IMG/VR virus record: IMGVR_UViG_3300020192_000008 | Location: 1-64,000 of that record | DNA length: 64,000 nt | Reading direction: 5' to 3' (one strand) | Origin: a virus | The notes under the pieces: generated by a model | Seen by the model: only the letters and a program-made list of their open reading frames with translations | Told to the model about the DNA's origin: nothing | The model's database searches: none | Translations under genes and position numbers: made by a program | Part shown: in pieces, positions 791 to 62,950 of the stretch | Position numbering within the stretch: the stretch's first letter is position 1 | How the letters are laid out: the number at the start of each line of letters is the position of its first letter

Positions 791-804
791 GCATAAGAAC
801 AATG
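791..804 (+). promoter_or_regulatory. ATAAG-N5-TG phage promoter-like motif
   Basis: GCATAAGAACAATG upstream of the plus-strand gene at 866. Confidence 0.7.
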
Positions 805-865
805 GAAGGAAACTCAACTCCTACATTGTGTAGGCGGTTGGCGAGGTACTTCCCCACGGGTCACC

Positions 866-1102
866 ATGGATTACCGCGAAGTCGCGGTTCGGGTTCTGTT
901 TGCGGTCGTGCGCGTGGCCACGTGGATCAACACGCGTCTGGTCAACGTGTACGGGATGTTCGGGTACTTCCACCTGGCCGTCAAGCTTGCCGGGAAGATG
1001 GAGCAGCTGAAGGAGAGGATCTCGGCGAGGCTGACGCCCGCCTTCCACGCGGCGTGCCAGAGAGAGATGGTGCGGGGGGTGGACATCGACTGGGAGAACT
1101 AG
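866..1102 (+). CDS. hypothetical protein (early cassette)
   Basis: 78 aa, GC3-rich, lies between promoter motif and terminator. Confidence 0.7.
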   Translation: MDYREVAVRVLFAVVRVATWINTRLVNVYGMFGYFHLAVKLAGKMEQLKERISARLTPAFHAACQREMVRGVDIDWEN

Positions 1103-1138
1103 AAGAAGGGGGACTAGTCTCCCTCCTTTTTCTTAGCT
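1102..1138 (+). terminator. hairpin + T-tract + TAGC terminator
   Basis: GGGGAC-TA-GTCTCC stem followed by TTTTTCTTAGC. Confidence 0.7.
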
Positions 1139-1167
1139 CTAGAACAGCAAAGAGATGGCGCTTCAAG

Positions 1168-1182
1168 GTATAAGAGTAGTGA
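1168..1182 (+). promoter_or_regulatory. ATAAG-N5-TG phage promoter-like motif
   Basis: GTATAAGAGTAGTGA, near-identical to 1470-1484 including the downstream AAGGGAA. Confidence 0.7.
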
Positions 1183-1191
1183 AGGGAACTC

Positions 1192-1225
1192 TAGAAGTGT
1201 CTTTAGAAGTGTCTTTAGTTGTGTC
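1192..1225 (+). repeat. 12-bp tandem repeat TAGAAGTGTCTT x2 plus a degenerate third copy
   Basis: Directly visible. Confidence 0.8.
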
Positions 1226-1397
1226 GGAGCGTGCTGTGTGTCGTTTTGCCTGATAGATCGAAGTAGGTTGCCACTACTTAGATTGGCGGATGCAGAGCAG
1301 GAGTAAAGCCTACTCCTGGGTAGGAGATGTTTGGGTATCCACGTCCCTGCATTGCCGTGGAAAAGGGTCCTGAGAGCTACCTCAGGGAATGACGGGC

Positions 1398-1430
1398 AGA
1401 GGGAATCCTCGCTCCCCTTTTTCTTAGCTC
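1398..1430 (+). terminator. hairpin + T-tract + TAGC terminator
   Basis: GAGGGAATCCTC followed by GCTCCCCTTTTTTCTTAGCTC. Confidence 0.6.
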
Positions 1431-1469
1431 CCGAATACATCTTCCACCTCAAAGAGTGGGGTAAAGGGG

Positions 1470-1484
1470 GGATAAGAGTAGTGA
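1470..1484 (+). promoter_or_regulatory. ATAAG-N5-TG phage promoter-like motif
   Basis: GGATAAGAGTAGTGA upstream of the gene at 1547. Confidence 0.7.
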
Positions 1485-2517: not shown

Positions 2518-5500
2518 CTACGGGGTAGTCACCTTTTTCTTGGCCTCACCCTTGGTACCCGCCACAGCATCACCGATCTCCGCAGCAGAGGCCGTTTTTC
2601 CTGCGATTAGAGCCAAAAGCTTCATAGAACCTTCCGCTGCCTTGGCCGTAGCAGCTGTGTTCTGTTTGATGGCGGCCGACTGGGGATCGTCCTTCTCCTG
2701 CTTCTTGAGCTTGGCTTCCTTGAGTGCATCGGAACCGCCGAGGTTTGCAGCAAGACGAGCAGCTCCTGCCTTATCACCACCCTTGAACTTCTCGGTGATG
2801 TTCTGCAAGTCTTCCATGTACGCCTGACCAGACTTGCTCTTGGTGTCGATACCCTGAGCCTGGGCAAGCTGTTTGGCAGCATCACCAGAGCCACCAGCGA
2901 ACAGCTTGTTAGCGCTCTGCTGGTCCATGCTGATACCGAGGGCATCTGCCAGGCCCTTGTTGCCTCCGGAGCTCATCTTCTTCTGAAGACCAGCCACGTA
3001 GTTGAGCTCGTCAGCCTGGTCTCCCAGGCCTTTCTTACGCATGATGGTAGCCGTAGCGAGCTTCTGCTGGACGGTCATGTTGTCCCCCTGCTCACCGGCC
3101 ATCTTGCGAGAGGCACGGCCCTTGTCGCTGTACTCCTCATCGCCGGCGCCGCCGTGCATCTTGCTCTCAGCCTGGGTGGCCTCGAGGATAGATGCGACGT
3201 AGCCCTGACCAGCCGCACCACCCTTGGCAGTCAGCTCATCGGCCGTCTTGGAGTCGAGCTCCATCTCCCCTTGATCGTTCCAGGTAGCCAGGCCCGAAGT
3301 CCTGACGTTATCCATCGTGTCAGCAGCGATCTTCCCGTACTTCTTGGTAGCGCCGTAGAACTCTTCCTTGTTCTTGCTATCGACGAGGCCAAACACGCCC
3401 TTGGCCCGCTGCTCGAAGGCTTCAGGGGACAAGCCGTGCTTCTTTGCCAGTCCAGCAATCTTGTCCGGGTCCTTGGCAGCGTCGCCGTACTCCTGGGCCA
3501 TGGTGGTCATTTCAAGGAAGTCTCGCTCACCCTTTTCATCGTCGGTGAGAGAGTCCTTGCGGTTGAGGTCCGCCATCCTCTTGGAGGTCTTCTTCAGGGC
3601 ATCTTCGCGGCTCTCGGCGTTGCGGCCGATCATGTCTCGAGCGGCGTTGATGCCCTCGTCACTGTCCGCGAACTTACCCAGGCCCCTACGAGCTCCAGTA
3701 CCAGATCCACCCTCCTTGCTGGTGAAGTAGTCATCCATGGAGCCCCTCAGAGAGTCCTGCTGGGCACCAAAACCAAACAGGTCGTCGCTAAGGCCAAGGG
3801 CTTTGGCTCCTGCACCGATGCCTTCAAGAGGAGCCGTACCGGCCAGGACCAAAGCTCGAGCCCCACCGCTAATCATGCGACCCTTACTGGCCTTGCCCGT
3901 GGCGTAGTCGGTAATAGACTCACCATCCCTCTTCTTCTGTAGATCCTGGGCCTCATTGGACCCATAGAGGTAGTCGCTGATCTTGTCTGCGCGATCACCT
4001 TCACTGGCCCCCATAGAGGCGCTGAAGAGGTTGGTGACATCAGGTGCAAGGTACTTCTGTCTCTCTTCCTTGCCCTGTCCAATGACGTCAGCGGCGGCAG
4101 TGATCAAGCCCACCTTGTTTCCAAGAGAGTCCGCATTGTTTCCAATCTCGCCCTGATGCCGCAGCTCCTTGAGAATGCTGTTGGATTCATCACCACCCTT
4201 CTTCTTCAAGTACTTGGTGATGCTATCGATACGCTTTTCACCGCTGCCCTGGATGGACTTGTCGGCGAACATCTCTGTGAAGAAGTTCTCGTGCTTCTTG
4301 GCGAACTGAAGGTTCTCGATCTTCGCGTCTTGGGTAGCTGCCTTGTGAGCTCCCATGTTCCGCTTCATCTCGTAATCGAAGGTCTTCTCGTCCGTGTGTG
4401 CTTTTGCACTGAACGAATATCCAGCCTTCTGGAAGCGGTCTGAGTCGCTCGAGAGAAGACCCAGCTTCGTAGCTGCGTCTCCCGTCATTCCGCCTTTGTC
4501 TCCGAAGAAACGCTGCTGAGCACTGGGGCCGCTGAGCAAACCACCGCCCCCAGTCTTGCCGCCACCAAGCACGCGGTTGTAGGCATCGTTACTCACAGCT
4601 CCTGAACCCCTCGAGGTACGCCACGCCCGGTCAGCCTGCTCGCTGAAGTGCTGGACGTACTGACCTGAGACCTTGTTCGACCAGGCCTCCAGGGTGTCCG
4701 AGCCAGCCGAGAACATGTCTGCGCCGATCTGCTGCAGCTTGCCCTGCAGACCTTCGCGGGCCTTCTCGAAGTTCTTCGAGAGACCAGAAAGGCCTTGGCC
4801 CTTCTTGTAGTCCTGCACCCTCTGGTTGTGCTTGTCGTCCTGACCCGAGCGGGACATCGTCCGCATCATCTCGGGCAGGTTGTCCACCATCTTGATGGCT
4901 GCGTCTGCCTCATCACGGCCCAGGCCAGAGAAGCGCTGGAAGGCGAGCATGGACCTGTCGTCCATGTTGCCGGGCTTGTGGCCACGGGATTCGAGCCACT
5001 GGCTGTACGCCATCGTGGGGGCCATCATCCCAAACTTCTCAAGAGCCCCTCCTCTCAACCTTCCTTCATTACGTATGAAGTTTGCACGGCCTACGCCGTT
5101 GAGGTTCTGACCGGCGAGCTCCATCGTTCGCCCCGTAGACATACCCCCACCCATCCACTCGGCGACCGCATCCTCATTGAGGTTGCCGTCTTTACCCGCA
5201 ACAGAGGCAAGGAACCTGCGCCCACGTCCGGACTTCAAGAAGTCAGCAGACTTGCCCATCATGTTAGAGGTGAACGCTTGGCGACCTTCAGCCCCCGTCT
5301 GACCCGTGGCGTTGTAAATGTCCTCCTCGGACAGCGCCCCGTTCTTCATCGCGGTCCCAACCTGACCGATGGCCAGCATGCCGCCAAAGGCGCCGCTTCT
5401 GCCCAGTCCGCCTACGGACCGGGAGATCTGCGAACCGATGGATGCCATGCCGGTGACTTCGCTCATCGCAAGCCCGCCCGCAGCAGCCATCCCTCGTACC

Positions 5501-6207
5501 CCGGCGCTCATCCGGAGCTGGTCTGCCTTCTGGAAGACACCTGCCCCCTTTACCGAGTGGATGAACTTCTGGGCCTCCTCGAGCGAGGAACCCATGTCGG
5601 TCGCGACCTTCTTCAAGGTGTCGACCATCTGTTTGAACTTGTCCTTGAACTCCGTGACTGAGGTGACGCCCTGCGCCATCCCCATCTTGCCCATGTTGCC
5701 GGCAAGCTTGGTGAGCTCAGCGAACCCGGTGATCTCCCCACCGGGTCCGGAGTCATGCGTCATCCCGCGCATGTGCTGACCGATCGAGGCTGACTGCTGG
5801 TTGGTGAAGCCACGGCCGCCTAGCTGGTTGGTGAAGTTGAAGTTCGACCGCATGGTCTGGTTCAACATCCCCTGCTGCTGACCGCCTTGGTACATCTGGC
5901 TGCCGATGTACTGACCCCCGGCCATCAAGGCCCCGGCCCCACCAGCGACACCCATGCCGACGGCGCCGGCGCCCATGACGCCCATCCCCATCTTGCCGTA
6001 CACGCTTGAAGCGGCACGCAAGCCAAGGCTCATCGGGTCCATGCCGAAGGCGCCCATAGCGCCTTGAAGCATGGGTGCACCTGCGGCCATCCCGCGGGCC
6101 ATCATCCCGCCCATGGCCGTATCCATGCCGGCCTGCTGGCCGCCAGCACCCATGATTTGGCCCATGAAGCCACCCCACGGGATGCCCCCAGGCGAGAGGT
6201 TCATCAT
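2518..6207 (-). CDS. putative tail tape measure protein
   Basis: 1229 aa, Gly/Ala/Met/Lys-rich and helical-looking with a hydrophobic N-terminal stretch; phage context with sheath and tube genes. Confidence 0.6.
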   Translation of the reverse strand: MMNLSPGGIPWGGFMGQIMGAGGQQAGMDTAMGGMMARGMAAGAPMLQGAMGAFGMDPMSLGLRAASSVYGKMGMGVMGAGAVGMGVAGGAGALMAGGQYIGSQMYQGGQQQGMLNQTMRSNFNFTNQLGGRGFTNQQSASIGQHMRGMTHDSGPGGEITGFAELTKLAGNMGKMGMAQGVTSVTEFKDKFKQMVDTLKKVATDMGSSLEEAQKFIHSVKGAGVFQKADQLRMSAGVRGMAAAGGLAMSEVTGMASIGSQISRSVGGLGRSGAFGGMLAIGQVGTAMKNGALSEEDIYNATGQTGAEGRQAFTSNMMGKSADFLKSGRGRRFLASVAGKDGNLNEDAVAEWMGGGMSTGRTMELAGQNLNGVGRANFIRNEGRLRGGALEKFGMMAPTMAYSQWLESRGHKPGNMDDRSMLAFQRFSGLGRDEADAAIKMVDNLPEMMRTMSRSGQDDKHNQRVQDYKKGQGLSGLSKNFEKAREGLQGKLQQIGADMFSAGSDTLEAWSNKVSGQYVQHFSEQADRAWRTSRGSGAVSNDAYNRVLGGGKTGGGGLLSGPSAQQRFFGDKGGMTGDAATKLGLLSSDSDRFQKAGYSFSAKAHTDEKTFDYEMKRNMGAHKAATQDAKIENLQFAKKHENFFTEMFADKSIQGSGEKRIDSITKYLKKKGGDESNSILKELRHQGEIGNNADSLGNKVGLITAAADVIGQGKEERQKYLAPDVTNLFSASMGASEGDRADKISDYLYGSNEAQDLQKKRDGESITDYATGKASKGRMISGGARALVLAGTAPLEGIGAGAKALGLSDDLFGFGAQQDSLRGSMDDYFTSKEGGSGTGARRGLGKFADSDEGINAARDMIGRNAESREDALKKTSKRMADLNRKDSLTDDEKGERDFLEMTTMAQEYGDAAKDPDKIAGLAKKHGLSPEAFEQRAKGVFGLVDSKNKEEFYGATKKYGKIAADTMDNVRTSGLATWNDQGEMELDSKTADELTAKGGAAGQGYVASILEATQAESKMHGGAGDEEYSDKGRASRKMAGEQGDNMTVQQKLATATIMRKKGLGDQADELNYVAGLQKKMSSGGNKGLADALGISMDQQSANKLFAGGSGDAAKQLAQAQGIDTKSKSGQAYMEDLQNITEKFKGGDKAGAARLAANLGGSDALKEAKLKKQEKDDPQSAAIKQNTAATAKAAEGSMKLLALIAGKTASAAEIGDAVAGTKGEAKKKVTTP

Positions 6208-6223: not shown

Positions 6224-6267
6224 CGCCCCTTGACCTAGTTGACGGCTCAACTTCTGACCCCTTTCGG

Positions 6268-6282
6268 GGATAAGAACAATGA
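6268..6282 (+). promoter_or_regulatory. ATAAG-N5-TG phage promoter-like motif
   Basis: GGATAAGAACAATGA. Confidence 0.7.
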
Positions 6283-6312: not shown

Positions 6313-6645
6313 GTGTTCGTAGTTCTTCTGGGGCTAGTCGCCCTGCGCGGCGCCGTTCGCGGTGTGGCTAACAGGGTGTTCGAGCACAACCTCACCCAGA
6401 TGCTGGGTGATGTTAGTCATCAAAAGGTCTGTGGTCGTCATGACGTTCTCCTGACTATCGAAGAGCAGGTGGAGTTCCTGGTGGCCGGGGAGAACAAGAA
6501 GAAGGAAATCTTCGGGCTGGGCGTTGACCGCTGGGAGGCCTTCTCCCGCATGTACAAGGACCAGCCGGAGGAGCTGGCCAAAGTCGACTGCTTCAACTGC
6601 AGTACCTGTGGCAGGGTTCATCCCAAGAGGGACCATGCCGCGTAA
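6313..6645 (+). CDS. hypothetical protein with C-terminal CxxC
   Basis: SD AAGGAGG before GTG; CSTCGRVH motif. Confidence 0.7.
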   Translation: MFVVLLGLVALRGAVRGVANRVFEHNLTQMLGDVSHQKVCGRHDVLLTIEEQVEFLVAGENKKKEIFGLGVDRWEAFSRMYKDQPEELAKVDCFNCSTCGRVHPKRDHAA

Positions 6646-6730
6646 CGACATCACAAGAGGGACCATTGCTCATGAACTGTTCAGTCACCCTTGGTGAGGT
6701 TCGCGGGGGGCAAAAGCTCCGCGAAATGCG

Positions 6731-6745
6731 GGATAAGAAGAATGA
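6731..6745 (+). promoter_or_regulatory. ATAAG-N5-TG phage promoter-like motif
   Basis: GGATAAGAAGAATGA. Confidence 0.7.
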
Positions 6746-7198: not shown

Positions 7199-7231
7199 AG
7201 AAAGGGCGCCTGTGGCCCTTTCTTTTTAGCA
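7199..7231 (+). terminator. hairpin + T-tract + TAGC terminator
   Basis: AGAAAGGGC...GCCCTTTCT followed by TTTTAGC. Confidence 0.75.
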
Positions 7232-7275
7232 CCTAAATACATCTTCCACTCTGTAGCAAAGGGCTCTTCTTCTAG

Positions 7276-7290
7276 GGATAAGAACAATGG
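7276..7290 (+). promoter_or_regulatory. ATAAG-N5-TG phage promoter-like motif
   Basis: GGATAAGAACAATGG. Confidence 0.7.
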
Positions 7291-7320: not shown

Positions 7321-7992
7321 ATGAAAGCTTTCACTGTTACAGAGCAAGCGACGAAGGGGATTCAGATTCCAGTTCTGTTGGGCAACGACAACGCCTTCTT
7401 CGGCATGCGTGTCGGGGGAGGGCTGTTGGGCGACCTGAAGAAGGCACTCGAGGTTGAACTCGAGATGGCCAACAAGGAGGATGAGCTCAAAGAGCTGACT
7501 CAGTACATCGATACTCTAGAGAGCATGCTCGGCGGCAGGGCTGTTGCTCCGATGCTGCTGCAGTCCTTGGACATGAACAAGGACAGGACGCACATCATGC
7601 GAGAGAACTCGGTGGGCAACAGGGACGCGCTCATCCACCTGGTCACAAAGACAGGGGATGGGGGCAAGATCAACCTGTATGCGAACACCGTTGATGAAGT
7701 TGAGGACGCAGATGGAGTGCTGCGCATCCCCCGACCGTTCCCTCCTCCAGGTGTGCAGCTCGTGGGGGAAACGGATACGGATACGGGTAAAGAGTGGCTC
7801 ATCAAGATGAGGCCACGCAGCAGCTTCAAGATCATCAGGTCAGGGGACCTGCAGGGTGCCCCACCCGAGCTTGTGGTGCTGTGGACGGGGAGGTGGCAGA
7901 GCCGTGTCTTCGAGAACTCTCGAAGCTTCCACGACCCGAGTGAATGGGGCCTGCGGGTCTTCCACCGCGACAGGGGGCCTCACCGCAGGTAA
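7321..7992 (+). CDS. hypothetical protein (early cassette)
   Basis: 223 aa, SD AGGAG; its TAA is the exact complement of the TTA ending the convergent gene. Confidence 0.8.
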   Translation: MKAFTVTEQATKGIQIPVLLGNDNAFFGMRVGGGLLGDLKKALEVELEMANKEDELKELTQYIDTLESMLGGRAVAPMLLQSLDMNKDRTHIMRENSVGNRDALIHLVTKTGDGGKINLYANTVDEVEDADGVLRIPRPFPPPGVQLVGETDTDTGKEWLIKMRPRSSFKIIRSGDLQGAPPELVVLWTGRWQSRVFENSRSFHDPSEWGLRVFHRDRGPHRR

Positions 7993-8202
7993 GGGGAGAG
8001 GGGCGTCAAGCCCCTCTTTCTTAGCCGCTATCTTGAGCTTGTAGTAGAGGTACGTCTTGATGATGGCGAACTCGCTGGGGGTGAGCGGCACCTTGTCTAC
8101 GGTGGTGAGGAACCACACCTCGAAGTCTCGGATGTCTTCGTCCACAAAGGCTTCGAGCTTATCTTCCGTAGGTTCACTGAGCTTGACTTCAACACGCTTC
8201 AT
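7990..8202 (-). CDS. hypothetical protein, 70 aa, TTA-terminated
   Basis: In-frame TTA at 7992-7990; extended -10 TGGTAACTT (8209-8217) lies 6 nt upstream. Confidence 0.65.
7996..8026 (+). terminator. hairpin + T-tract + TAGC terminator
   Basis: AGAGGGGC-GTCAA-GCCCCTCT followed by TTCTTAGC. Confidence 0.75.
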
Positions 8203-8650: not shown

Positions 8651-9115
8651 ATGGTCCCAGAGAAGGCTTACCAGGCGTTCTTCAAGTTCGCGAAAGAACA
8701 GAAGGAGATCTATCGGCAGGTGGGCAACGTCCTACTTGATCGAGACATCCCCATCATCCCCCGCCTGCCCAGCGACAAGGGCAAGGCCCGAGCTCTGCTC
8801 GAGAACCACATCAGGGCAGCTGAGAGTGAGAACTGGACACACCCCCAGGTAGCCGTTCGCAAGCTCGACCTCAAGGGCATGGGCTTTGAGCCGACGCGAG
8901 CAGCCATCCCCCTGCCTGGGGAGAAATGGTTCACGCCTTCGTACCGTTCAGGGAAGATGCACGCCCACAAGATGGGGCCGTTCTACCTGGTGCATGAGGA
9001 TGAGTCAGCCCCCAAGGGCTTCGCTGACACCGTCTCGCACCTGATCAAAGACACGCCCAAACCCCTGCTGAAACGCATCTTCGAGAAGATCCCCCCGCCC
9101 GTGGTCAACCGGTGA
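8651..9115 (+). CDS. hypothetical protein (K-x-A motif, late-type promoter)
   Basis: AFFKFAKE motif; extended -10 TGTTAGACT 7 nt before ATG. Confidence 0.7.
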   Translation: MVPEKAYQAFFKFAKEQKEIYRQVGNVLLDRDIPIIPRLPSDKGKARALLENHIRAAESENWTHPQVAVRKLDLKGMGFEPTRAAIPLPGEKWFTPSYRSGKMHAHKMGPFYLVHEDESAPKGFADTVSHLIKDTPKPLLKRIFEKIPPPVVNR

Positions 9116-9134
9116 TAAGGAGCCATCATTTCGG

Positions 9135-9149
9135 GGATAAGAAGAGTGA
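9135..9149 (+). promoter_or_regulatory. ATAAG-N5-TG phage promoter-like motif
   Basis: GGATAAGAAGAGTGA. Confidence 0.65.
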
Positions 9150-9812: not shown

Positions 9813-9847
9813 GAGCCCCCTTGCCGGGGGCTCTCTTCTTTTCTAGC
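9813..9847 (+). terminator. hairpin + T-tract + TAGC terminator
   Basis: GAGCCCCC-TTGCC-GGGGGCTC followed by TCTTCTTTTCTAGC. Confidence 0.8.
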
Positions 9848-9850
9848 TCC

Positions 9851-22621: not shown

Positions 22622-23038
22622 CTAATCCTCGTTCTTCGGAAGCACAAGACGATTCTTCTCAGCGGGGAAAGAAATCTTCATCAGACTCTCGGAGACTGAC
22701 GTAGGAAGCTCACGGCCGATGCCTGCTTGCGGACGGTAATACGCACCAGGAGGTATCTGCTGCATCTTCTCGGCGTTGTACCGAAGCTCTTGCCGACGAA
22801 CAACGCCGCCCACAGTCTGGTCTTCGACCTCTTCGATCTTCACATAGCCGAAGATCTCATCGTCCATCGAGAACCAGAGGAAGTCCCCGGCAGAGATCGA
22901 CTTGAAGGGGTAGCGGGTGACGATGAAGGAGTCGCCCTGGACGCACCACTTGTAGAAGCGAAACCAAGAAGAGGTGTCGCCGTCACCGGCCGGGGCCGGG
23001 TCTTTAGCGATCATGGCGTAAACGTAGTGCCTGGGCAT
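22622..23038 (-). CDS. hypothetical protein, possibly EVE/PUA-like
   Basis: W...ISAGDFLWF...IFGYVKI pattern; weak similarity only. Confidence 0.55.
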   Translation of the reverse strand: MPRHYVYAMIAKDPAPAGDGDTSSWFRFYKWCVQGDSFIVTRYPFKSISAGDFLWFSMDDEIFGYVKIEEVEDQTVGGVVRRQELRYNAEKMQQIPPGAYYRPQAGIGRELPTSVSESLMKISFPAEKNRLVLPKNED

Positions 23039-23096
23039 CGATGCTCTTGTACCTGCCTTCCTCCGCTCTTTTCAAGAGGGACTGTACCATCGCGGT

Positions 23097-44003: not shown

Positions 44004-44093
44004 GGTGGTGTCCCTTGGTTCTTGATCAGTTGAGGATTACGCGCTGCGTGTTCCTCGAGGGGGAACCCCTCTCCACGCCGGCTTTCGCCCGAG

Positions 44094-55295: not shown

Positions 55296-56492
55296 TCAAA
55301 CGAGGCACGATGCTTCGCCCGTGAGGATCATCCCGAAGAGAACAAGGGGAGGACTTCCAGGAACGGGTACTGGCGTAAAGGGGAAAGTGAGTTGCACCAA
55401 TGCCCCCTGAGCAGCCACGGGCTTGGAGCCCTTGCCCAGGCGAACAATGCTTCCCTTGACGTGGGCCAGAGCTCCGCCATCGAGAACCATACCGTTCTTG
55501 GCCTTCATCAAGATCTGATTCTCGCTCTCGAGAGTCAGGTCTTCTTTGCTCTTGATGTAGATCTTCTTCTTCGAGGTGAGAGCCACGTTGCCCTGCGCCC
55601 TGAGGAAGACGCCACCAGCCTTGTCGAAGAAGAACCTCATGACAACCTTGTCACGGGTCTTGTTGTCGATGGGGTCCCCTGTGTCTGCGTTGAATCCCTT
55701 GGGGGCTATCACGCACTCAACCACGATCTGCTCCTTACCGATGCTGAGCAAGTCGAGCAGGCCCTGCTCACCACCATCACCCGATGGCTCGATGATGGGG
55801 TCATGAATCTTGCCCACCTTCACCCGAACATCTGCCTCTTCATCATTGGCCAGGATGCGAAAGGTGTGGGTGTACTCGCTGGGTAGGTCCTGGTAAGCCG
55901 GGCCTTCTTGGATGCCCCAAAGAACAGACCCACCGTGGTTGTGGTGGGCATAGTTCTTCGTCATCTGCATCAACGTATCGGTGAGCGGGATGTAGATGCT
56001 CTGGCAGATCTCCGAGCAGCCGATCTGCAATACACCGCCCCGATGAAGGATAACGAAGTTGCCATCCCTCGTACGGAACCAGATGTCACCCGGCTTGGCC
56101 TTGGGCCTACCCCCTGAGAAAGTCGCGCTAGTCGAGCTCTTGTTCGGCTGGTTGTTCGACTGCGTTCCCTTGGGCGCGTCCGGAGCTGCCTGGTCGTTGT
56201 ACTCAACCGGCATGATGAACGAGCTCACGTAAGGGGGTGAGCTGTCGGAGGGGACGGTGACCATGCACTTGGCACCAACCTCGGGGAAGACGTAAGCGCC
56301 CTCCCCGTTGTTGTAGTGCAAGTACATGCTGCCTACTTGGATGCCAGCAAACCTATGCCGGTCGAACTGGCTGATGACATCCACCGTCCAGTTCGCCAGG
56401 TTGACGCCGACGATCTTCCCTTGAAGAACGTACGACTCAACGTTCCCCTCCATGAAGGTGAACGAGGTGCGGAAGCGTTGGATGCCTTGCAT
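55296..56492 (-). CDS. baseplate central spike-like protein (gp5/gpV OB-fold N-terminus)
   Basis: GKIVGV...YVFPEVGAKCMV motif and beta-repeat C-terminus. Confidence 0.6.
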   Translation of the reverse strand: MQGIQRFRTSFTFMEGNVESYVLQGKIVGVNLANWTVDVISQFDRHRFAGIQVGSMYLHYNNGEGAYVFPEVGAKCMVTVPSDSSPPYVSSFIMPVEYNDQAAPDAPKGTQSNNQPNKSSTSATFSGGRPKAKPGDIWFRTRDGNFVILHRGGVLQIGCSEICQSIYIPLTDTLMQMTKNYAHHNHGGSVLWGIQEGPAYQDLPSEYTHTFRILANDEEADVRVKVGKIHDPIIEPSGDGGEQGLLDLLSIGKEQIVVECVIAPKGFNADTGDPIDNKTRDKVVMRFFFDKAGGVFLRAQGNVALTSKKKIYIKSKEDLTLESENQILMKAKNGMVLDGGALAHVKGSIVRLGKGSKPVAAQGALVQLTFPFTPVPVPGSPPLVLFGMILTGEASCLV

Positions 56493-59400
56493 CAGTAGCT
56501 GTGCTCCGACACGTTCTCGAGGTGCTTGTAGCCAGGCAGCTTCGACTGGTTCTTGTTCAGACCAAACTCAGCGCCGTAGGCAATCGCGGGGATCGGGTGG
56601 CTGCCGTGCAAGTTGCTCTTCGACCGCATGGCTGCGCCCTCGGCGATGGTGTCGCGGAGGTTGCGGTGCTGCAGCTTCGCCATCCAGTCTTCCTGCAGTT
56701 CGAGGGGCATCATGTTGACGCCCTTCAGAACAGGGGTGTGCTCGATGGGCTTCTTGCCCGCTTTGGCCAGGTCGTTGTTCATCTTCTGCACCATGCTCAG
56801 GGGCTGGAACTCGCCGCGCAGAATGCCCTCTGAGTCCCCAGGATGCACGACCTTCGTGAGGTTTGACATGGCTTTGACGACTACTTCGACATGGCGGCGC
56901 TTGATGCCCTCGTCCTTGTAGAGGGAGTACATCTCGCTTACGAGGTGGTTCTGCACCTTGTCGATGGAGCCAGTGGCCTTGTAGAGGTCGTGCGGGTTGA
57001 GCACGGTTCGGTGGGGGTCGGACAGAGACTGCCCAGCCTCGATGTGGTCACCGATCTTGGGGGGCGCCCAGCTGAGCAGGTTCTCCTGGCCTGGCAGCAG
57101 GTGGTGCAGAGGCATGCCTGTCTGGTCCTTGCCGACATGGTGAGGGCGCTTGCCGACCCACACGTTCACGCCCGTCGCTGTGTTCTCCACCTTCTCCACC
57201 TTGCCCGAGACCATGGCCAGGGAGGCCGCGTTGGGGATCTTCTGGGGGAGCATGGCGAGCTGCTCGAAGCGGCCGAAGCCCGACACAGCGGCTGAGGCAC
57301 CACCGGCGACACCGCCAGTGTGGAACTCCTTCATGGTGAGCTGCACGGCTCGCTCACCGAGCGTGTGGCTTGAGAGCACCCCGATGTTGTCGCCGATGTT
57401 GTGCATGTGGCCAGTTGAAGACAGGCCTACGCACTTCTGGCAGATGCCCTTCTCATGCTCACACCGCAGCGGGCTACGCACCACGATCTTGGCATTCTTA
57501 TCGGCGGCCTTGATCTGCGCGACCTTGTCGGGGGTGAGCAGCTCCCCGGCCTTGATGTGTACGTGCCCAGCCTTGAAGTCGGAAGCCAGCAGGCGATCGT
57601 GTACATCCTTCTCGTTGATGTGCAGAGAGATGCCCCTGGTCGTCCCGCAGTCGGGCTGGGTCACGAGGATGTCCATCGTGTTGTTCTGCAGCAGCTTGGA
57701 CATGTAGCCAGGTTCCTGGGTCTCCTGAACCTTCATGACCGAGCCCCTGCGAGCTCCGTGCATCTGCGTCCAGTACCCGGCCATATCGAGGCCTTCGGAG
57801 TAGCTCTTCGTAACAGGCAGCGGGATGACCCTGTTGTTCGCGTCCGTGAGCAGCATGGGCGCAATCTTCATCTGCTTGTACTGAGCCCACGACGGCTTAG
57901 CCCCAGCCTTGTACATGATGTACAAGTTGTCCATCTTCTTGTCGGCTTCGATCTTGTGGGCGTCGCCGATCTCCTTGTCGGCCTTCATGTAGATGTCAAC
58001 GATACGACGCTCCTTGTCGTTCTTGTTGACCCTACTAGCCCGAACAGCATCCGCCTCCTTGTGAGCGCCGACGAGCACCTTGTCTCGACCGATCTTGTCC
58101 GTCTGGAAGTCGGCAAGAGAGAGCGTGTGCATGCCCGTGGGTACGAAGATGTTCTTCTTCGGATCGTTGATGTTGTGAACACCAACGTTAGGCATGGGCA
58201 CGGTCACCGTGCCGAAAGCCGAGTGGTTGCCCACGTCCTTCAACATGTTGACTGACTTGTCGAACTGATCCTTGTGGTCTTTGCCGAGCTTGGTGAGCAG
58301 TGACTCAAGGCCCTTCTTATCGATACGCATCTCCAGGTTGTGGAGAAGGTCTGCTTGCATGCCGAGCGGCATGGTAGTAGCGAGAAGAACCCGGCCAGCG
58401 GTCGTCTTCTTACCGTTGAGAGAGACCACGTCGTTGTAGTGGAACTTGCCCCCTCGCACGGCGTCAAGGATGTCGCCAGGAGTCTTGAACGTATGGCTCG
58501 TTTCTTTACCAACCATCGAAAGCTTGTAGAGCCCGATGGCCGAGTCGAGGGTGGGGATGAACGCCACCCGCCCCGTGTTCTCCATGAAGATATTGTTCGA
58601 CGGCTTCATGCGGTGCGCTTCGGCAACCGCGTCCCTGTGGATGGGGACGAAGACGCTCATGGTGTCTCCGTCGAAGTCGGCGTTGAACCCACCGCAGACA
58701 AGCGGATGGATCTTGATGGCGTTGCCCTCTACACGCTTAGCCTGAAATCCCTGCACGTTGTACTTGTGAAGGGCGGGGTCACGCTTGAGCAGGATAGGTC
58801 GCTCTTCCATCACGGAGTCGAGGGCCTTGATGACGCTGGGATGATCTTTCTTCGTAAGGAGCTTCTGCGCGTCGAGAGGGTTCGATGCCGCACCCATCTC
58901 CTGAAGCTTCTTGACGATGAAGGGGCGAAACAGATCAAGCGCGTGGTCCTTCGGGAGACCGACCTCATCAAGCCCCAGCGAGGGCTCTGGGACGATGGTC
59001 GAGCGCATGGTCAGGTCCTGCCGCTTCTGGACGACGGACTTCTGGAAGTACCCGTTCTTCGGGGAGGCACCGGAAATCTGATGAAGGAGCCCCTTGTGCT
59101 TTGCCTGAGCGTAGGGGACGTGTATCCCGATGACAGCCTTGACGCCGTCGTAGTAGTTCTGACGAAGCTCCTTCTTCATCTCGTCGGTCAAGTGCCGCGC
59201 CAGCGTCGGGTCCTTGAGCTTATCGTTGACAAGGGCGAACTCCGAGTACAGCTGGTTGATGTCGGCGTACTTGATGTTGCCATCAGCCATCGGGGACGCC
59301 GGCCGAAGGACTGGTGGGATGATGGGCATCTTCGTCATTACGTAGGCTTCTGATGCGCCTACGCCCAACTGATCGAGAGCCCTGAGGTACTTCACCTTCT

Positions 59401-62400
59401 TCAAGACCGGGTCAACCTTGGCCATGGGAACGGAGTTGAGCTCCTTCATCCCGGCGGCCAGGTCCTTCTTCACGTCGACCTTCGAGAGCAGGTGCTGGAT
59501 GGCCCGACCACCGGTGTGGGCTGCGTCCTTGAGCTCGACGATCTTCCCCTGGTGGTTGATGCCCGACTCGCCGTGAACGATGGCGTCGAAGTCCTTCTGG
59601 GTCAGGCCCGTGAGACTGCGGATGGGGGCCTCGAACACTGGGTTCGGCACCGGCTCTGCGAGATCGATGTGGCTCCACTTGATGCCGCCGTGCCCACCGG
59701 TGAGCTTCTCATCAAAGAGACCACCAGGCCTGGGCTTGAGCTCACCGGACTTGTCGACCTTGGCTTCGAGGCGTTCAGCTGGCTTGGGCAGGGCCCTGCC
59801 AGCCGAGAGCTCCATCACATGCTTGTCCGTCAGGGGCGAGAGGATGAGCTCGTGGCCCTTCTTCTCGATGTTCACCCCTGAGCCCTTGAGCATGTCCTCG
59901 AACTTCTTGAAGGCGAAGGTGCTCTTGGGCGTGGGCAGAGGAGCGCCTGTCTGGATGGCGTTCCACACCTGCAGGTGCTGGCTTGGCCACTTCTTGCTCT
60001 CGTTGGTCTGGGGGTCTTCACCCTCCCCCTTCCACGTCTGCATCTCCCGGATGTTCGCCTTCGCCCCGTGGGCAAGCAGGGCGTACATACCGAGTGAACC
60101 GATGCGCTGACCTGAGCCGGGCTGCAGGTTCTGGTCATAGCGGTCACGGTTGGGTTGACCTGGAAGGCCCATGCCCGAAGCCACGGTGACCTTCTTGTCG
60201 ACCTGGTGAACCAGCTTGAGGATGTGCTGGTGACCCGTCATGGCATGCCCCAGTGATTGCCCCGTGACCGGGTCGATGAGCTCCTCGGTGTCGTGCAGGC
60301 CGTGGCTCTTCAGCTCCGCCTGCACCTTCGCCACCATGTCGACGTCCTTCTGAAAGGCCTGAACGACGTAGGGCTTACCCGTCTTGATGGCGATCTTCGA
60401 CGCTGCCGTCTCGAGCAGTTGGCTCACATTCATACGACCAGGCACGCCCGTGGGGTTGAGCGCTACCTCGATGGGCTTGCCATCCTTGCTGTGGGGCATC
60501 TCATGGTCGGGCAGAACCATGGTGACAATGCCCTTGTTGCCGTACCGACCGGCGAGCTTGTCGCCTGACTGCATGGGCTCGTGCGTCTTGACGTGTACCT
60601 GCAGGCCACCCTTGCCATTGGTGACAGAGACAACTTCCCCCTCAACCTCTCCCTCCCAGCGCAGGGACTTGTCGGCATGGCTGCCGGCCAGAGACTTGCG
60701 GATGGCCGAGACACCCGTCCTGTCCTTGAGCTCGAAGGGCTTCATGGCCAGGGCCAGGGGATCTCCAGGGGTGACCTTGGAGCCAACCTTGATGACGCCG
60801 TCGTCACCGAAGTTGACCAGCTGCTCCTTCTTGTAGACCCCGGGGTGTTGGATCTGAAACTTGCGGGTGCTCAGGATGGTGTCGGTGTCGACGGGCACCG
60901 TGTGCTTGTGCAAGTGCATCGAGGCGAGCTTCTTGGAAGCCGTCTCGCTGATGACAACGCCGTCCTCGAAGTTGTACCCCTTGAAGGGGATGAAGGCGAC
61001 GCGCAGGTTTGAGCCAAGCGCGAGAACGCCATCCTTCGAGTAGTTGGTGTCAGCGACTGTCTCGCCCTTCTTCACCTTGTCACCCACCTTCACAAGAGCG
61101 CTCGAGTGGAGCACGCTCTTCGTGTCATTGGTCGGGTAGTGGTTGTAGAGAGGGACGTCGTGCTTGTCGCCGTTCTTGTCCTTGATGACGATGTTGTCAG
61201 CGTGGATTGAATGCACGACACCATCAGCCGTTGCTTGGTGCGAAGCCTGGCTGCCAAGCACGGCCTCGAAGCTCTGAAGGCCTGGCGTGTAGACGCCGGT
61301 GCCCACCTGAACGAGAGGCGCTTCTCGGTTGACGAGGGAGATAGACTGCTCGATGTGGCGGGTGGCCATCGACACGCGGTTGCCCGAGCAGTTGTTCATG
61401 AACGGCACGAGGTTCGATGTCATGTTGAACACCTGGCTCGAGTGCTTCATGACGTAGTGGGCATCCTTGAAGGGGATGGGGCCCATGTCGTTGTCGTCTT
61501 GGGCGGCCTGCACCGTCTTGCTCAGTGGGACCGGCTTGCCGTTCTCCCACTTCACCTGGTCTGCCAGCACCACGCTTGACTTCATGAACAGAGCAGGGGG
61601 GACCAAGTCCATCTTGCCCGTCTTGAGGTTGTACAGGGGGACAACAGGATCGTTACCCAGCTTCCGTACACCGAGAGGCAAGCGCAACGTCACGCCAGTC
61701 TTCGAGCCTTCGGGCGTGTTCACGGGATCGAGAAAGCCGAAGTGGCTCTTGTTGAGCATCTTCGCTTCGTTGGTGACAGCCTGCTCACTCTGGATGCCGC
61801 CCGAACCCATGATGGTAGTCTGCATTGCAGAGCTCATCATCTCGACCGGGTTGATCTGAGAAGCCACACGAGCTGCAGAGTTCTTGTGGAACGACTGCTT
61901 GATCGGCTCGTTGAACATCTCGAGCTTTACGATCTCCCTGATGTCGCTCTTCGAGTTGATGTTCCTCGATGCCTTCATGGCGATGGTTCGACCAGCCGCC
62001 TTGATCTTGTCGTGGGCGAAGTCTCCAGCTGAACGCAGGTCCTTGAAGATGAGGCTGTCCCGGTCATCCTCTGGGTGACCCGCCTGCACCTTGAGCATCT
62101 TCTGCGTCGCCAGGTGCAAGGCCTCACCACTCACGTGATCGATGGGCTTGCCCAGCGTGACGGACGTAGCGTCAGTACGCATCTTCGAGTTCTGCATCGC
62201 CTCGAAGAAGTGCGTCTCAGCAACCTCCTTCGAGATAGGTGCCTCTTTGCGGTCTGACTTGTAGAAGCGCTCGAGCGTACCGGCGGCACCACGGGCATTC
62301 TTGTTGGCCGCGAAGATCTCTTTGCCCCAGCTCTTCTCGAGATCGTCGTCAGAGATGCCCATCGTCTTGATGAGCGGATAGAGCGGCAGTTTGCTCTTGT

Positions 62401-62872
62401 TGTACTCCATGTAGAACTGCTTCGACTTCTCATCGAAGAGCACATCGAATGGAGCCTTGCCCTGAACGTTGAAGCGTGTCTCGAGCTCACCGTTCTGACG
62501 ACGACGCGTGTAGGCACCGGGCTTGAGTTGCCACTGATTGTCGACCTGGTACTCCTGCCCATCCATGATGTAGGAGTAGCGCTGAGTCTGACGGGGGATC
62601 TCCGCGATGCGTACGCGGCGTTGATCCACCACTTTGCCAGTGGCGTTATCAACGAGACGCATGTGCCCGTAGACTGGAGCAGAGAAGCTGCCGCCGTTGA
62701 TCTTCGCCTTGTGTTGGACCCTCAAGTCATCGGGGTGTAGCTCATCCTTTACTTCAAGCTTGTCAAGGTGAAGGGTCTGCACCTTCCCCTTCATAGGGAA
62801 GTTCGTCTGGATGCCTTCCAGCGTTCTATCGCGGAAGTGCTCGAACGCTTCTTGAGGGTCTAGATGAGCCAT
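56492..62872 (-). CDS. rpoBC: fused beta-beta' multisubunit-type DNA-directed RNA polymerase
   Basis: Beta motifs TPEG, GYNFEDG, GDKLAGRYGNKG and GQRIG; beta' motifs LLKRDPALHK, NADFDGD (58664-58684), ICQKC and GERAVQLTMKEFHTGG. Confidence 0.95.
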   Translation of the reverse strand: MAHLDPQEAFEHFRDRTLEGIQTNFPMKGKVQTLHLDKLEVKDELHPDDLRVQHKAKINGGSFSAPVYGHMRLVDNATGKVVDQRRVRIAEIPRQTQRYSYIMDGQEYQVDNQWQLKPGAYTRRRQNGELETRFNVQGKAPFDVLFDEKSKQFYMEYNKSKLPLYPLIKTMGISDDDLEKSWGKEIFAANKNARGAAGTLERFYKSDRKEAPISKEVAETHFFEAMQNSKMRTDATSVTLGKPIDHVSGEALHLATQKMLKVQAGHPEDDRDSLIFKDLRSAGDFAHDKIKAAGRTIAMKASRNINSKSDIREIVKLEMFNEPIKQSFHKNSAARVASQINPVEMMSSAMQTTIMGSGGIQSEQAVTNEAKMLNKSHFGFLDPVNTPEGSKTGVTLRLPLGVRKLGNDPVVPLYNLKTGKMDLVPPALFMKSSVVLADQVKWENGKPVPLSKTVQAAQDDNDMGPIPFKDAHYVMKHSSQVFNMTSNLVPFMNNCSGNRVSMATRHIEQSISLVNREAPLVQVGTGVYTPGLQSFEAVLGSQASHQATADGVVHSIHADNIVIKDKNGDKHDVPLYNHYPTNDTKSVLHSSALVKVGDKVKKGETVADTNYSKDGVLALGSNLRVAFIPFKGYNFEDGVVISETASKKLASMHLHKHTVPVDTDTILSTRKFQIQHPGVYKKEQLVNFGDDGVIKVGSKVTPGDPLALAMKPFELKDRTGVSAIRKSLAGSHADKSLRWEGEVEGEVVSVTNGKGGLQVHVKTHEPMQSGDKLAGRYGNKGIVTMVLPDHEMPHSKDGKPIEVALNPTGVPGRMNVSQLLETAASKIAIKTGKPYVVQAFQKDVDMVAKVQAELKSHGLHDTEELIDPVTGQSLGHAMTGHQHILKLVHQVDKKVTVASGMGLPGQPNRDRYDQNLQPGSGQRIGSLGMYALLAHGAKANIREMQTWKGEGEDPQTNESKKWPSQHLQVWNAIQTGAPLPTPKSTFAFKKFEDMLKGSGVNIEKKGHELILSPLTDKHVMELSAGRALPKPAERLEAKVDKSGELKPRPGGLFDEKLTGGHGGIKWSHIDLAEPVPNPVFEAPIRSLTGLTQKDFDAIVHGESGINHQGKIVELKDAAHTGGRAIQHLLSKVDVKKDLAAGMKELNSVPMAKVDPVLKKVKYLRALDQLGVGASEAYVMTKMPIIPPVLRPASPMADGNIKYADINQLYSEFALVNDKLKDPTLARHLTDEMKKELRQNYYDGVKAVIGIHVPYAQAKHKGLLHQISGASPKNGYFQKSVVQKRQDLTMRSTIVPEPSLGLDEVGLPKDHALDLFRPFIVKKLQEMGAASNPLDAQKLLTKKDHPSVIKALDSVMEERPILLKRDPALHKYNVQGFQAKRVEGNAIKIHPLVCGGFNADFDGDTMSVFVPIHRDAVAEAHRMKPSNNIFMENTGRVAFIPTLDSAIGLYKLSMVGKETSHTFKTPGDILDAVRGGKFHYNDVVSLNGKKTTAGRVLLATTMPLGMQADLLHNLEMRIDKKGLESLLTKLGKDHKDQFDKSVNMLKDVGNHSAFGTVTVPMPNVGVHNINDPKKNIFVPTGMHTLSLADFQTDKIGRDKVLVGAHKEADAVRASRVNKNDKERRIVDIYMKADKEIGDAHKIEADKKMDNLYIMYKAGAKPSWAQYKQMKIAPMLLTDANNRVIPLPVTKSYSEGLDMAGYWTQMHGARRGSVMKVQETQEPGYMSKLLQNNTMDILVTQPDCGTTRGISLHINEKDVHDRLLASDFKAGHVHIKAGELLTPDKVAQIKAADKNAKIVVRSPLRCEHEKGICQKCVGLSSTGHMHNIGDNIGVLSSHTLGERAVQLTMKEFHTGGVAGGASAAVSGFGRFEQLAMLPQKIPNAASLAMVSGKVEKVENTATGVNVWVGKRPHHVGKDQTGMPLHHLLPGQENLLSWAPPKIGDHIEAGQSLSDPHRTVLNPHDLYKATGSIDKVQNHLVSEMYSLYKDEGIKRRHVEVVVKAMSNLTKVVHPGDSEGILRGEFQPLSMVQKMNNDLAKAGKKPIEHTPVLKGVNMMPLELQEDWMAKLQHRNLRDTIAEGAAMRSKSNLHGSHPIPAIAYGAEFGLNKNQSKLPGYKHLENVSEHSY

Positions 62873-62935
62873 CTTTGTGTCTCTGGTGAGGGTACTCCAC
62901 GCGCAAGAGTCGGTGCAAGGTACGCTTTTTCAGCG

Positions 62936-62950
62936 GCATAAGGACTTTGA
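62936..62950 (+). promoter_or_regulatory. ATAAG-N5-TG phage promoter-like motif
   Basis: GCATAAGGACTTTGA, divergent from the RNAP gene. Confidence 0.55.

What the first reader, a model, noticed from the sequence alone, without database searches (positions are those of the whole stretch)
791..62950. Conserved ATAAG-N5-TG motif: candidate promoter for the phage RNAP
Eight copies (791, 1168, 1470, 6268, 6731, 7276, 9135, 62936), all on the plus strand, lie upstream of short non-structural units. The consensus is G(G/C/T)ATAAG-N5-TG, often followed by AGGGAA(A)CTC. It does not match the sigma70 consensus.
Basis: partly seen in the sequence, partly recalled or inferred. Interest (0 to 1): 0.7.

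Follow-up and report, generated by a model that had tools for sequence, protein, structure and literature searches.

The report
Phage-specific two-box ATAAG promoter
The repeated ATAAG word is the core of a real two-part transcription start signal that a group of large phages carrying their own bacterial-type RNA polymerase and sigma factor place before their non-virion genes, so it probably marks a largely self-contained viral transcription system.

Summary
ATAAG-N5-TG occurs 8 times in the window, all on the + strand and all in gene-upstream gaps (2.0 expected, 0 of 100 shuffles).

Aligned on ATAAG, the sites show a sigma-type two-box promoter: (G)CAAA(G), a 17-nt spacer, GGnATAAG, then TG. 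The G of TG falls where +1 is expected.

A weight matrix built only from a complete 178-kb relative (RNAP 51% identical) recovers all eight sites. ATAAGA is the most enriched upstream hexamer in that relative, and TATAAG/GGTATA are in Salmonella phage Arash and Vibrio phage D181. The site beside the RNAP gene is kept in five phages.

The last base of the -10-like box is G, where host primary sigmas require T. These phages also encode a divergent sigma: Arash gp10, found with the RNAP in virions by published proteomics, and a homologue in the complete relative. That gene lies in the segment missing from this 58%-complete contig.

No start site has been mapped. Earlier agents of this scan reported the same motif and reading on at least 8 other genomes. 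I found no published description.

The parts
769..804 (+). Promoter 1: box GGCAAAA 769-775, GGCATAAG 790-797, inferred +1 G at 804. It drives the 78-aa ORF 866-1102.
   Evidence: (29.3 bits with the matrix built from the complete relative)
1146..1181 (+). Promoter 2: box AGCAAAG, GGTATAAG, inferred +1 at 1181. It drives a ~245-nt unit with no credible ORF that ends at the terminator near 1419.
   Evidence: (23.9 bits)
1448..1483 (+). Promoter 3: box CTCAAAG, GGGATAAG, inferred +1 at 1483. It drives a gene ending at 2170, whose start lies behind the GAGGAGG ribosome site.
   Evidence: (23.0 bits)
6246..6281 (+). Promoter 4: weak box CTCAACT, GGGATAAG, inferred +1 at 6281. It drives 6313-6645. 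It is divergent from the 1229-aa gene 2518-6207(-).
   Evidence: (21.7 bits)
6709..6744 (+). Promoter 5: box GGCAAAA, GGGATAAG, inferred +1 at 6744. It drives a gene that starts at ATG 6795 and ends at 7181.
   Evidence: (24.2 bits)
7254..7289 (+). Promoter 6: box GCAAAG with a spacer 1 nt shorter, GGGATAAG, inferred +1 at 7289. It drives 7321-7992.
   Evidence: (10.4 bits because of the shifted box)
9113..9148 (+). Promoter 7: GGGATAAG, inferred +1 at 9148. The start codon ATG 9149 follows at once, so the message is leaderless or has a 1-nt leader.
   Evidence: (21.6 bits)
62914..62949 (+). Promoter 8: box TGCAAGG, GGCATAAG, inferred +1 at 62949. It drives a small conserved Lys-rich ORF (ATG 62988) and the block with the AAA ATPase and the DUF2201 metallopeptidase/VWA protein. 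The site is kept in five phages.
   Evidence: (18.1 bits)
62889..62918 (-). Conserved TTGCAC-N18-TACCCT upstream of the RNAP gene, back-to-back with promoter 8 so that the two -35-like boxes overlap. It is compatible with a host primary-sigma promoter, but the match is weak and unproven.
   Evidence: An ungapped alignment of five phages keeps TTGC and TA...T.
56492..62872 (-). Fused beta-beta' RNA polymerase, 2126 aa, with an intact NADFDGD motif. The beta' clamp-helix region aligns with bacterial beta'. The gene overlaps the next gene of the virion module.
23028..23074 (-). Weak candidate site (ACAAG variant, 14.5 bits) 12 nt before the start of 22622-23038(-).
383..409 (+). Intrinsic terminator with the lineage-typical tail TTTTCTTAGC. 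Others of the same kind lie at about 1107-1137, 1393-1428, 2177-2212, 7200-7232, 7990-8025 and 9813-9848.

Best explanation
The motif is the -10-like half of a sigma-type, two-box promoter. The consensus is (G)CAAA(G) at about -33..-29, a 17-nt spacer, GG-n-ATAAG at -14..-7, a 6-nt discriminator, and T(-1)G(+1).

It heads the non-virion transcription units of this phage: small orphan genes, a possible non-coding unit, and, in weaker form, the replication gene blocks. Each unit is closed by a uniform hairpin + TTTT(C)TTAGC terminator.

The promoter is most likely recognised by a divergent sigma70-family factor of the phage lineage (the family of Arash gp10), working with the phage's own fused beta-beta' polymerase. 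G at -7 in place of the universal T would keep the host's primary sigma off these sites.

Shown: the motif, its architecture, its placement, its conservation across the lineage, and the co-occurrence of RNAP, sigma and motif.

Inferred: the start site, the identity of the recognising factor, its partner core enzyme, and delivery of the enzyme inside the virion.
For: Statistics and placement.

Two-box architecture with a fixed spacer in this genome (G0) and in the complete relative (G4).

A matrix built only from the G4 sites finds 8 hits of at least 16 bits in G0 (0.05 expected), all on the + strand.

ATAAGA is the top upstream hexamer in G4: 19 of 87 gaps against 1.8 expected, p = 2e-14. GGTATA, GTATAA and TATAAG are top in Arash: 24, 23 and 21 against about 2. 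TATAAG is among the top in D181: 26 against 3.5.

The orthologous site next to the RNAP gene is kept in five phages.

Start codons lie exactly 12 nt after the A of ATAAG, with no ribosome site, in five G4 units and at G0 9149.

G dominates the last position of the box: 9 of 12, 20 of 28 and 37 of 58.

Sigma: G4 97982-98878 matches Arash gp10 (phmmer 6.9e-12) and passes the Pfam Sigma70_r3 cut-off. A family profile hits solved sigma factors from region 2 to region 4 (2e-15, with full-length matches to FliA). The family has 452 cluster representatives. D181 has a homologue too (4.7e-57).

G0 is colinear with G4, and the G4 segment 90-117 kb that holds the sigma gene is exactly the part missing from the G0 contig.

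RNAP and sigma are abundant in purified Arash virions (PMC10585845) and are particle-associated in YerA41 (PMC7354516).

The beta' clamp-helix region, which is the sigma docking site in bacteria, aligns with bacterial beta'.
Against: No sigma gene is present in the 107 kb of this genome. Its existence here is inferred from synteny with G4.

No transcription start site has been mapped in any of these phages.

Nothing shows which core enzyme the sigma binds. Phage sigmas such as T4 gp55 and SPO1 gp28 are known to use the host core (my own knowledge).

Arash also has sigma70-like promoters enriched in its gaps (24 of 118 matches). Host RNAP therefore takes part in that phage's programme, and the timing class of the ATAAG units is open.

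More distant RNAP-encoding phages (YerA41, Rhizobium phage TM30) show no GGTATAAG enrichment.

Proteins found in a virion by mass spectrometry may be carried along rather than delivered.
Confidence: 0.6

Rival explanations
1. The promoter is read by the host core RNA polymerase redirected by the phage sigma (sigma appropriation). The phage polymerase transcribes something else, for example late genes.
For: The architecture is sigma-type. The sigma family aligns with bacterial sigmas over regions 2-4. Known phage sigmas use the host core (my own knowledge). No alpha or omega subunit was noted in the genome (earlier first-stage note; not tested here).
Against: RNAP and sigma are found together in the virions of Arash and YerA41. 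The phage beta' keeps an alignable clamp-helix region. Motif, sigma and RNAP co-occur in every genome checked here that has the motif.
Confidence: 0.15
2. The phage polymerase recognises the motif by itself or with a non-sigma factor, as the phiKZ and AR9 non-virion enzymes do with their fifth subunit. The sigma homologue serves another promoter class.
For: No sigma is present on this contig. In Arash the upstream box is weak, so the conserved part is one contiguous block, GGTATAAG-N5-TGTAA.
Against: A fixed 17-nt spacer joins the two boxes in G0 and G4. The geometry is the same as in sigma28 promoters, with A at -11. ATAAG-type sites sit upstream of the operon that holds the sigma gene in G4 and in contig L054.
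Confidence: 0.1
3. The motif is a promoter for host RNA polymerase with a host sigma, either a FliA-like alternative sigma or an unusual primary sigma of an unknown host.
For: It resembles the sigma28 consensus TAAAG ... GCCGATAA. The host of this phage is unknown.
Against: The same motif dominates in phages of Salmonella and Vibrio, whose primary sigma reads TTGACA/TATAAT, and in high-GC uncultured phages. The CG of GCCGATAA is not kept. G at -7 is incompatible with primary-sigma -10 recognition.
Confidence: 0.07
4. The motif is not a promoter. It would be an operator for a DNA-binding regulator or an RNA-level signal such as a processing or translation element.
For: No start sites have been mapped. 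A conserved purine-rich word and a hairpin follow the motif in four units.
Against: The motif is not palindromic. It has strict orientation, two boxes at promoter spacing, and a position just after terminators. Start codons lie 12 nt downstream with no ribosome site, which makes sense only if transcription starts there.
Confidence: 0.03

Closest known systems
Sigma28 (FliA/WhiG, group 3 sigma) promoters: (-36)TCTAAAG(-30) ... (-15)GCCGATAA(-8) (PMC12784957)
   Same: Both have a -35 box ending in AAAG and a G-rich extension followed by ATAA with A at -11. The overall geometry is the same. The phage sigma is of group-3 size (about 230-300 aa), and the best named families for Arash gp10 are FliA/WhiG.
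   Different: The CG of GCCGATAA is not conserved (GGn instead). An invariant G follows ATAA. The -35 box sits 1 nt closer. The sigma scores far below the FliA family cut-offs (45 against 326 bits).
Extended -10 promoters of primary sigma70-type holoenzymes (TGnTATAAT)
   Same: G at -14 and ATAA at -11..-8 are shared, and the start lies about 7 nt after the hexamer. In Arash the site reads TGGTATAAG.
   Different: T at -7 is replaced by G in nearly all sites. T at -15 is not kept in this genome. The -35 box is GCAAA rather than TTGACA.
Virion-packaged phage RNA polymerases that transcribe early genes (N4 vRNAP, phiKZ vRNAP, crAss-like phi14:2 gp66)
   Same: The RNAP gene lies inside the virion-gene module. 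Homologous RNAP is abundant in the virions of Arash and YerA41. The motif heads small orphan genes of the kind usually transcribed early.
   Different: Those enzymes work without a sigma70-family factor and use other signals (DNA hairpins for N4, AT-rich words for phiKZ; my own knowledge). Here the enzyme is close to cellular beta/beta' and is accompanied by a true sigma homologue.
Non-virion RNAP promoters of jumbo phages (phiKZ gp68-dependent; AR9 gp226-dependent; PMC5449584, PMC9209446)
   Same: A phage multisubunit RNAP acts with a phage-encoded specificity subunit and has a short phage-specific -10-like word.
   Different: The AR9 enzyme reads the template strand of uracil-containing DNA, and neither system has a -35 box. 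Their specificity subunits have no sequence similarity to sigma. This one does.
mReC phages (Weinheimer and Aylward 2020, PMC7481178)
   Same: These are tailed phages that encode beta and beta' detectable with cellular profiles.
   Different: That paper does not treat promoters or sigma factors. Here the two subunits are fused in one chain.

Membership tests
Sigma70-family-type two-box promoter | Two conserved boxes separated by a fixed spacer of 17 +/- 1 bp | tested here: met
   The box (G)CAAA(G) starts 23 nt before the A of ATAAG in 6 of the 8 G0 sites (22 nt in one, weak in two). In G4 the invariant AA lies at -21/-20 relative to ATAAG in 17 sites.
Sigma70-family-type two-box promoter | A -10 element with A at -11 and T at -7 | tested here: not met
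   A at -11 fits, but position -7 is G: 9 of 12 in G0, 20 of 28 in G4 and 37 of 58 in Arash.
Sigma70-family-type two-box promoter | Transcription starts at a purine 6-8 nt after the -10 hexamer | tested here: inconclusive
   T-G is conserved 6-7 nt after the hexamer. Start codons follow directly in five G4 units and one G0 unit. No experimental start sites are available.
Sigma70-family-type two-box promoter | Recognition depends on a sigma factor | not testable with these tools
   A lineage sigma exists, but binding was not tested and the gene is absent from this incomplete contig.
Sigma28/FliA promoter class | -10 element GCCGATAA with the CGA core | tested here: not met
   Only ATAA and the upstream G are shared. 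Positions -13/-12 read G and n.
Sigma28/FliA promoter class | -35 element TAAAG about 15 nt upstream of GCCGATAA | tested here: inconclusive
   The boxes are CAAAG (G0) and (T/G)(G/A)AAA (G4), with a spacing 1 nt shorter.
Sigma28/FliA promoter class | The cognate sigma is a FliA/WhiG family member | tested here: not met
   Arash gp10 scores 45 bits against a cut-off of 326. The G4 sigma reaches only E = 0.055.
Sigma70 protein family (for the lineage sigma) | Regions 2, 3 and 4 are alignable to known sigma factors | tested here: met
   Pfam Sigma70_r3 is above its cut-off in G4, P0002, P0004, P0008 and gp10. The family profile matches solved SigA, RpoD, FliA and SigF chains over profile positions 76-240, and FliA over 37-245 of 249.
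T7-type single-subunit RNAP promoters | A contiguous block of about 23 bp (-17..+6) read by a single-subunit polymerase | tested here: not met
   The polymerase is a multisubunit-type beta-beta' fusion, and the motif has two boxes with a free spacer.
N4 virion RNAP promoters | A conserved DNA hairpin at the promoter | tested here: not met
   There is no conserved inverted repeat in -40..+1. Hairpins occur only downstream in the leaders and differ in sequence.
mReC-type phage RNAP | beta and beta' are detectable with cellular profiles, in a tailed-phage genome | tested here: met
   Rpb2_6 at 1.7e-58, plus Rpb1_2 and Rpb1_5; terminase and baseplate-like genes lie nearby. Phylogenetic placement was not tested.

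The most novel reading that the evidence does not exclude
A widespread lineage of 100-190-kb phages carries a complete, host-independent, bacterial-type transcription unit: a single-chain beta-beta' core plus its own sigma. The enzyme is delivered in the virion and reads a private promoter class (GCAAA-N17-GGnATAAG) that is insulated from the host sigma by G at -7. At the RNAP gene this promoter sits back-to-back with a host-type promoter, the two -35 boxes overlapping, which would form a switch between the two enzymes.
Probability: 0.35. Interest if true: 0.75.

Novelty: new variant of a known kind. Interest (0 to 1): 0.6.

Why it matters
Phage-encoded multisubunit polymerases studied so far (phiKZ, AR9, crAss-like) are far from the cellular enzyme and use factors unrelated to sigma. 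Here a cellular-like core, a true sigma homologue and a clear cognate promoter class occur together.

This gives a testable model of how a sigma-promoter pair drifts away from the host's: G for T at -7 and a new -35 box. It also gives a way to annotate transcription units in a large group of uncultured phages. The polymerase-sigma-promoter set could serve as an orthogonal expression system.

Two cultured members, Salmonella phage Arash and Vibrio phage D181, make the predictions directly testable.

Tried and rejected
- **Close relatives of the early region.** I searched for them to footprint sites 1-7. Megablast against cultured phages found nothing. The 1229-aa neighbour gene found no viral contig. 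The two nearest relatives, G1 and G2, cover only 22-81 kb of this genome. Only site 8 could therefore be footprinted.
- **Sigma on this contig.** Pfam Sigma70_r2 and r4 gave no hit. The r4 hit in G4 at 62069 turned out to be an HNH homing endonuclease with an HTH domain.
- **CGTGGAG as a late promoter word.** Rejected, because most GTGGAG copies are ribosome sites.
- **Host-type promoters in general.** Only weak, scattered matches were found in G0 and G4.
- **The RNAP-gene promoter.** Its host-type reading rests on its conservation pattern alone.
- **The ORF-less unit 1181-1428 as a structured RNA.** There was no Rfam hit and the fold z-score was -1.37.
- **GGTATAAG in more distant RNAP phages.** It is not enriched in YerA41 or Rhizobium phage TM30.
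- **Contig context of the nearest sigma relative.** I used a metagenome scan instead.
- **Literature.** Four of six searches looked for a published description of this promoter class and found none.
Full report
**Context**

The window is the first 64 kb of a 107,272-bp IMG/VR viral contig, called G0 here. It has GC 0.60 and CheckV rates it 58% complete.

The 2126-aa ORF at 56492-62872(-) is a single-chain fusion of RNA polymerase beta and beta'. It matches Pfam Rpb2_6 at 1.7e-58, together with Rpb1_2 and Rpb1_5. Its NADFDGD catalytic motif is intact. This is the kind of phage described as mReC (PMC7481178), a paper that does not deal with promoters.

**The observation**

ATAAG-N5-TG occurs at 793, 1170, 1472, 6270, 6733, 7278, 9137 and 62938. 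All copies are on the + strand. The expected number is 2.0, and none of 100 shuffles reaches 8. A stricter core, [GCT]ATAAGA-NN-A-N-TG, occurs 7 times in the whole 107 kb, all between 792 and 9136.

Every site lies upstream of a + strand gene. For site 6733 the gene start is better placed at ATG 6795, behind an AAGGA ribosome site. ATAAG is 17 of 34 intergenic in a genome that is 7% intergenic (p = 2e-11). The downstream word (A)AGGGAA(A)CTC is present in 4 of the 8 sites.

**Anatomy**

Aligned on ATAAG, the sites show four features:

- a second box, (G)CAAA(G), starting 23 nt upstream, which gives hexamers separated by 17 nt;
- GG at the two positions before the variable base;
- a free 5-nt stretch;
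- T-G.

If nATAAG is numbered -12 to -7, as in bacterial promoters, then GG is at -14/-13 and the G of TG is +1.

The units follow one layout. An intrinsic terminator comes first (GC hairpin plus TTTT(C)TTAGC), then the promoter, then a purine-rich 5' end with a small hairpin, then a strong ribosome site and the start codon 30-50 nt later. At 9137 the start codon follows the TG directly.

**Independent genomes**

Searching with the RNAP found four related viral contigs. One of them, G4, is complete: 178,559 bp with terminal repeats. Its RNAP is 51% identical and it is colinear with G0.

- **Unbiased enrichment in G4.** In a hexamer test on gene-oriented upstream gaps, ATAAGA ranks first: 19 of 87 gaps against 1.8 expected, p = 2e-14.
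- **G4 site anatomy.** Seventeen G4 sites show the same two boxes and spacer. In five of them the ORF starts exactly 12 nt after the A of ATAAG (ATAAG-N5-TG-ATG) with no ribosome site. This makes sense only if transcription starts at the TG.
- **Cross-genome matrix.** A weight matrix built only from G4 sites finds 8 hits of at least 16 bits in G0 (0.05 expected), all on the + strand. It adds 89024, 72557 and 87084 beyond the window and a weak variant at 23050(-).
- **Orthologous site.** The site next to the RNAP gene is kept in all five phages in an otherwise diverged gap. On the RNAP strand it reads CTTAT-N18-CTTGC.

**Cultured relatives**

tblastn with the RNAP finds Salmonella phage Arash and Vibrio phages D181, D148 and D69 at 31-32% identity.

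- **Arash.** The top upstream hexamers are GGTATA, GTATAA and TATAAG, at 24, 23 and 21 gaps against about 2 expected. The sites read (T)GGTATAAG-N5-TGTAA and lie mostly on the strand opposite the RNAP gene.
- **D181.** TATAAG occurs in 26 gaps against 3.5 expected, together with a TAAAAT box.
- **More distant phages.** YerA41 and a Rhizobium phage show no enrichment.

The motif therefore travels with this RNAP lineage across hosts. Some of those hosts (Salmonella, Vibrio) have a well-known primary sigma consensus. The last base of the box is G, not the T that primary sigmas require: 9 of 12, 20 of 28 and 37 of 58.

**Who reads it**

This contig has no recognisable sigma gene. The lineage does have one.

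- **Homologues.** Arash gp10, annotated as a sigma factor, has a homologue in G4 at 97982-98878 (phmmer 6.9e-12). D181 has one as well (4.7e-57).
- **Sigma identity.** The G4 protein and its relatives pass the Pfam Sigma70_r3 cut-off. A profile of 30 family members matches solved sigma factors from region 2 to region 4, and FliA over nearly its full length. The family has 452 cluster representatives in the 1.84-billion-protein library. Its best named relatives are FliA/WhiG, far below the family cut-offs.
- **Why it is missing here.** G0 and G4 are colinear, and the G4 segment 90-117 kb that holds the sigma gene is the part the G0 contig lacks.
- **Promoter in front of the sigma operon.** ATAAG sites sit upstream of the operon that contains the sigma gene in G4 and in a 7-kb metagenome contig carrying the closest sigma relative.
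- **Virion proteomes.** In purified Arash virions the RNAP beta subunit is the most detected protein, and beta' and gp10 are also present (PMC10585845). In YerA41 the RNAP subunits and a sigma factor are particle-associated (PMC7354516).
- **Docking site.** The beta' part of the G0 enzyme aligns with bacterial beta' across the clamp-helix region, where sigma docks in bacteria.
- **Gene neighbourhood.** In G0 the RNAP gene overlaps the next gene of the virion module, a protein with a weak baseplate-spike-like hit. The + strand blocks behind ATAAG sites encode orphan proteins and replication functions: SNF2-type helicase, UDG, DnaB, PolA, a RecA-like protein and KilA-N.

**Comparison with known classes**

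The closest known consensus is sigma28: (-36)TCTAAAG(-30) and (-15)GCCGATAA(-8) (PMC12784957). Shared features are AAAG in the -35 box, ATAA with A at -11, and a G-rich extension. The differences are that the CG core is lost, G follows ATAA, and the boxes are 1 nt closer together.

In Arash the site also looks like an extended -10 element, TGnTATAA, with G in place of the final T. It is not a T7-type, N4-type or phiKZ/AR9-type signal.

**Open points**

- **Start sites.** None has been mapped.
- **Partner core enzyme.** The sigma's partner, phage or host, is not shown.
- **Timing.** Arash also carries sigma70-like promoters in its gaps, so the temporal class of the ATAAG units (early or middle) is open.
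- **RNAP-gene promoter.** Upstream of the RNAP gene, five phages keep TTGC(A/T/G)N-N18-TA(C/A)(C/T)(C/G)T, back-to-back with the ATAAG promoter. This is compatible with a host-type promoter, but it matches the consensus weakly.

**Earlier work of this scan**

Notes and reports on at least 8 other genomes describe the same motif and reach the same reading. They are not independent evidence. I reached the architecture, the link to Arash and the sigma link from my own calls before reading them. From them I took only the reference for the sigma28 consensus. I found no published description of this promoter class.

**Verdict**

It is a new variant of a known kind of signal. It is of real interest to phage transcription researchers and is directly testable in two cultured phages.

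Noticed in passing
window 400, 1128, 1419, 2205, 7223, 8017, 9839; G000 67097, 88536, 90104/90138: The terminators of the + strand units are uniform: a GC hairpin followed by TTTT(C)(T)TAGC(T/A)CC. In G0, 12 of 14 matches to the tail pattern are intergenic, and the same tail recurs in G4, Arash and D181. The conserved TAGC after the U-tract suggests a lineage-specific termination or processing signal.
   Followed up: partly
window 747, 1435, 7237; G000 91240: The exact 13-mer ATACATCTTCCAC occurs four times, always on the + strand. Three copies lie between a terminator and the -35 box of an ATAAG promoter, at variable distance (46, 37 and 41 nt to ATAAG). The fourth lies inside the ribonucleotide reductase gene on the opposite strand. 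Its function is unknown.
   Followed up: partly
window 1181-1428 (+): A promoter-to-terminator unit of about 245 nt has no credible ORF and contains a tandem TAGAAGTGTCTT repeat near its 5' end. It may be a non-coding RNA, but there is no Rfam hit and the fold z-score is only -1.37.
   Followed up: partly
window 44047-44089 (-): A non-coding hairpin element, GCCGGCGTGGAGAGGGG-nn-CCCCTCG, lies upstream of the 284-aa head-module gene 43149-44003. It is 93-94% identical in G1 and G2 and recognisable in G4, far above the surrounding DNA. It may be a regulatory or RNA-stability element of the late operon.
   Followed up: partly
window 62889-62918 (-): TTGC(A/T/G)N-N18-TA(C/A)(C/T)(C/G)T is kept in five phages upstream of the RNAP gene. 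Its -35 box overlaps the -35-like box of the divergent ATAAG promoter. It may be a host-type promoter and a switch point between the two enzymes.
   Followed up: partly
window 47968-51108 (-); G000 80631-83024 (+); G2 RNAP gene: Inteins or homing elements interrupt core genes: a LAGLIDADG domain in the terminase, intein and Hint domains in DNA polymerase A, and a 1.5-kb insertion in the RNAP gene of relative G2.
   Followed up: no
window 2518-6207 (-): A 1229-aa protein with no Pfam or PHROG hit is conserved in G4 (43% identity). It lies between ATAAG units and is preceded by TACCCT 7 nt before its ATG, so it may be a leaderless message from a host-type -10 element.
   Followed up: no
whole genome: Other first-stage notes on this genome claim that TTA acts as a stop codon. 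I did not test this. If true, it would shift some gene ends but none of the promoter sites.
   Followed up: no
Salmonella phage Arash OQ632216.1: Arash has two promoter classes in its gaps: about 35-50 (T)GGTATAAG sites and an enriched set of sigma70-like TTGACA-N17-TAnnnT sites (24 of 118 matches are intergenic and correctly oriented).
   Followed up: partly
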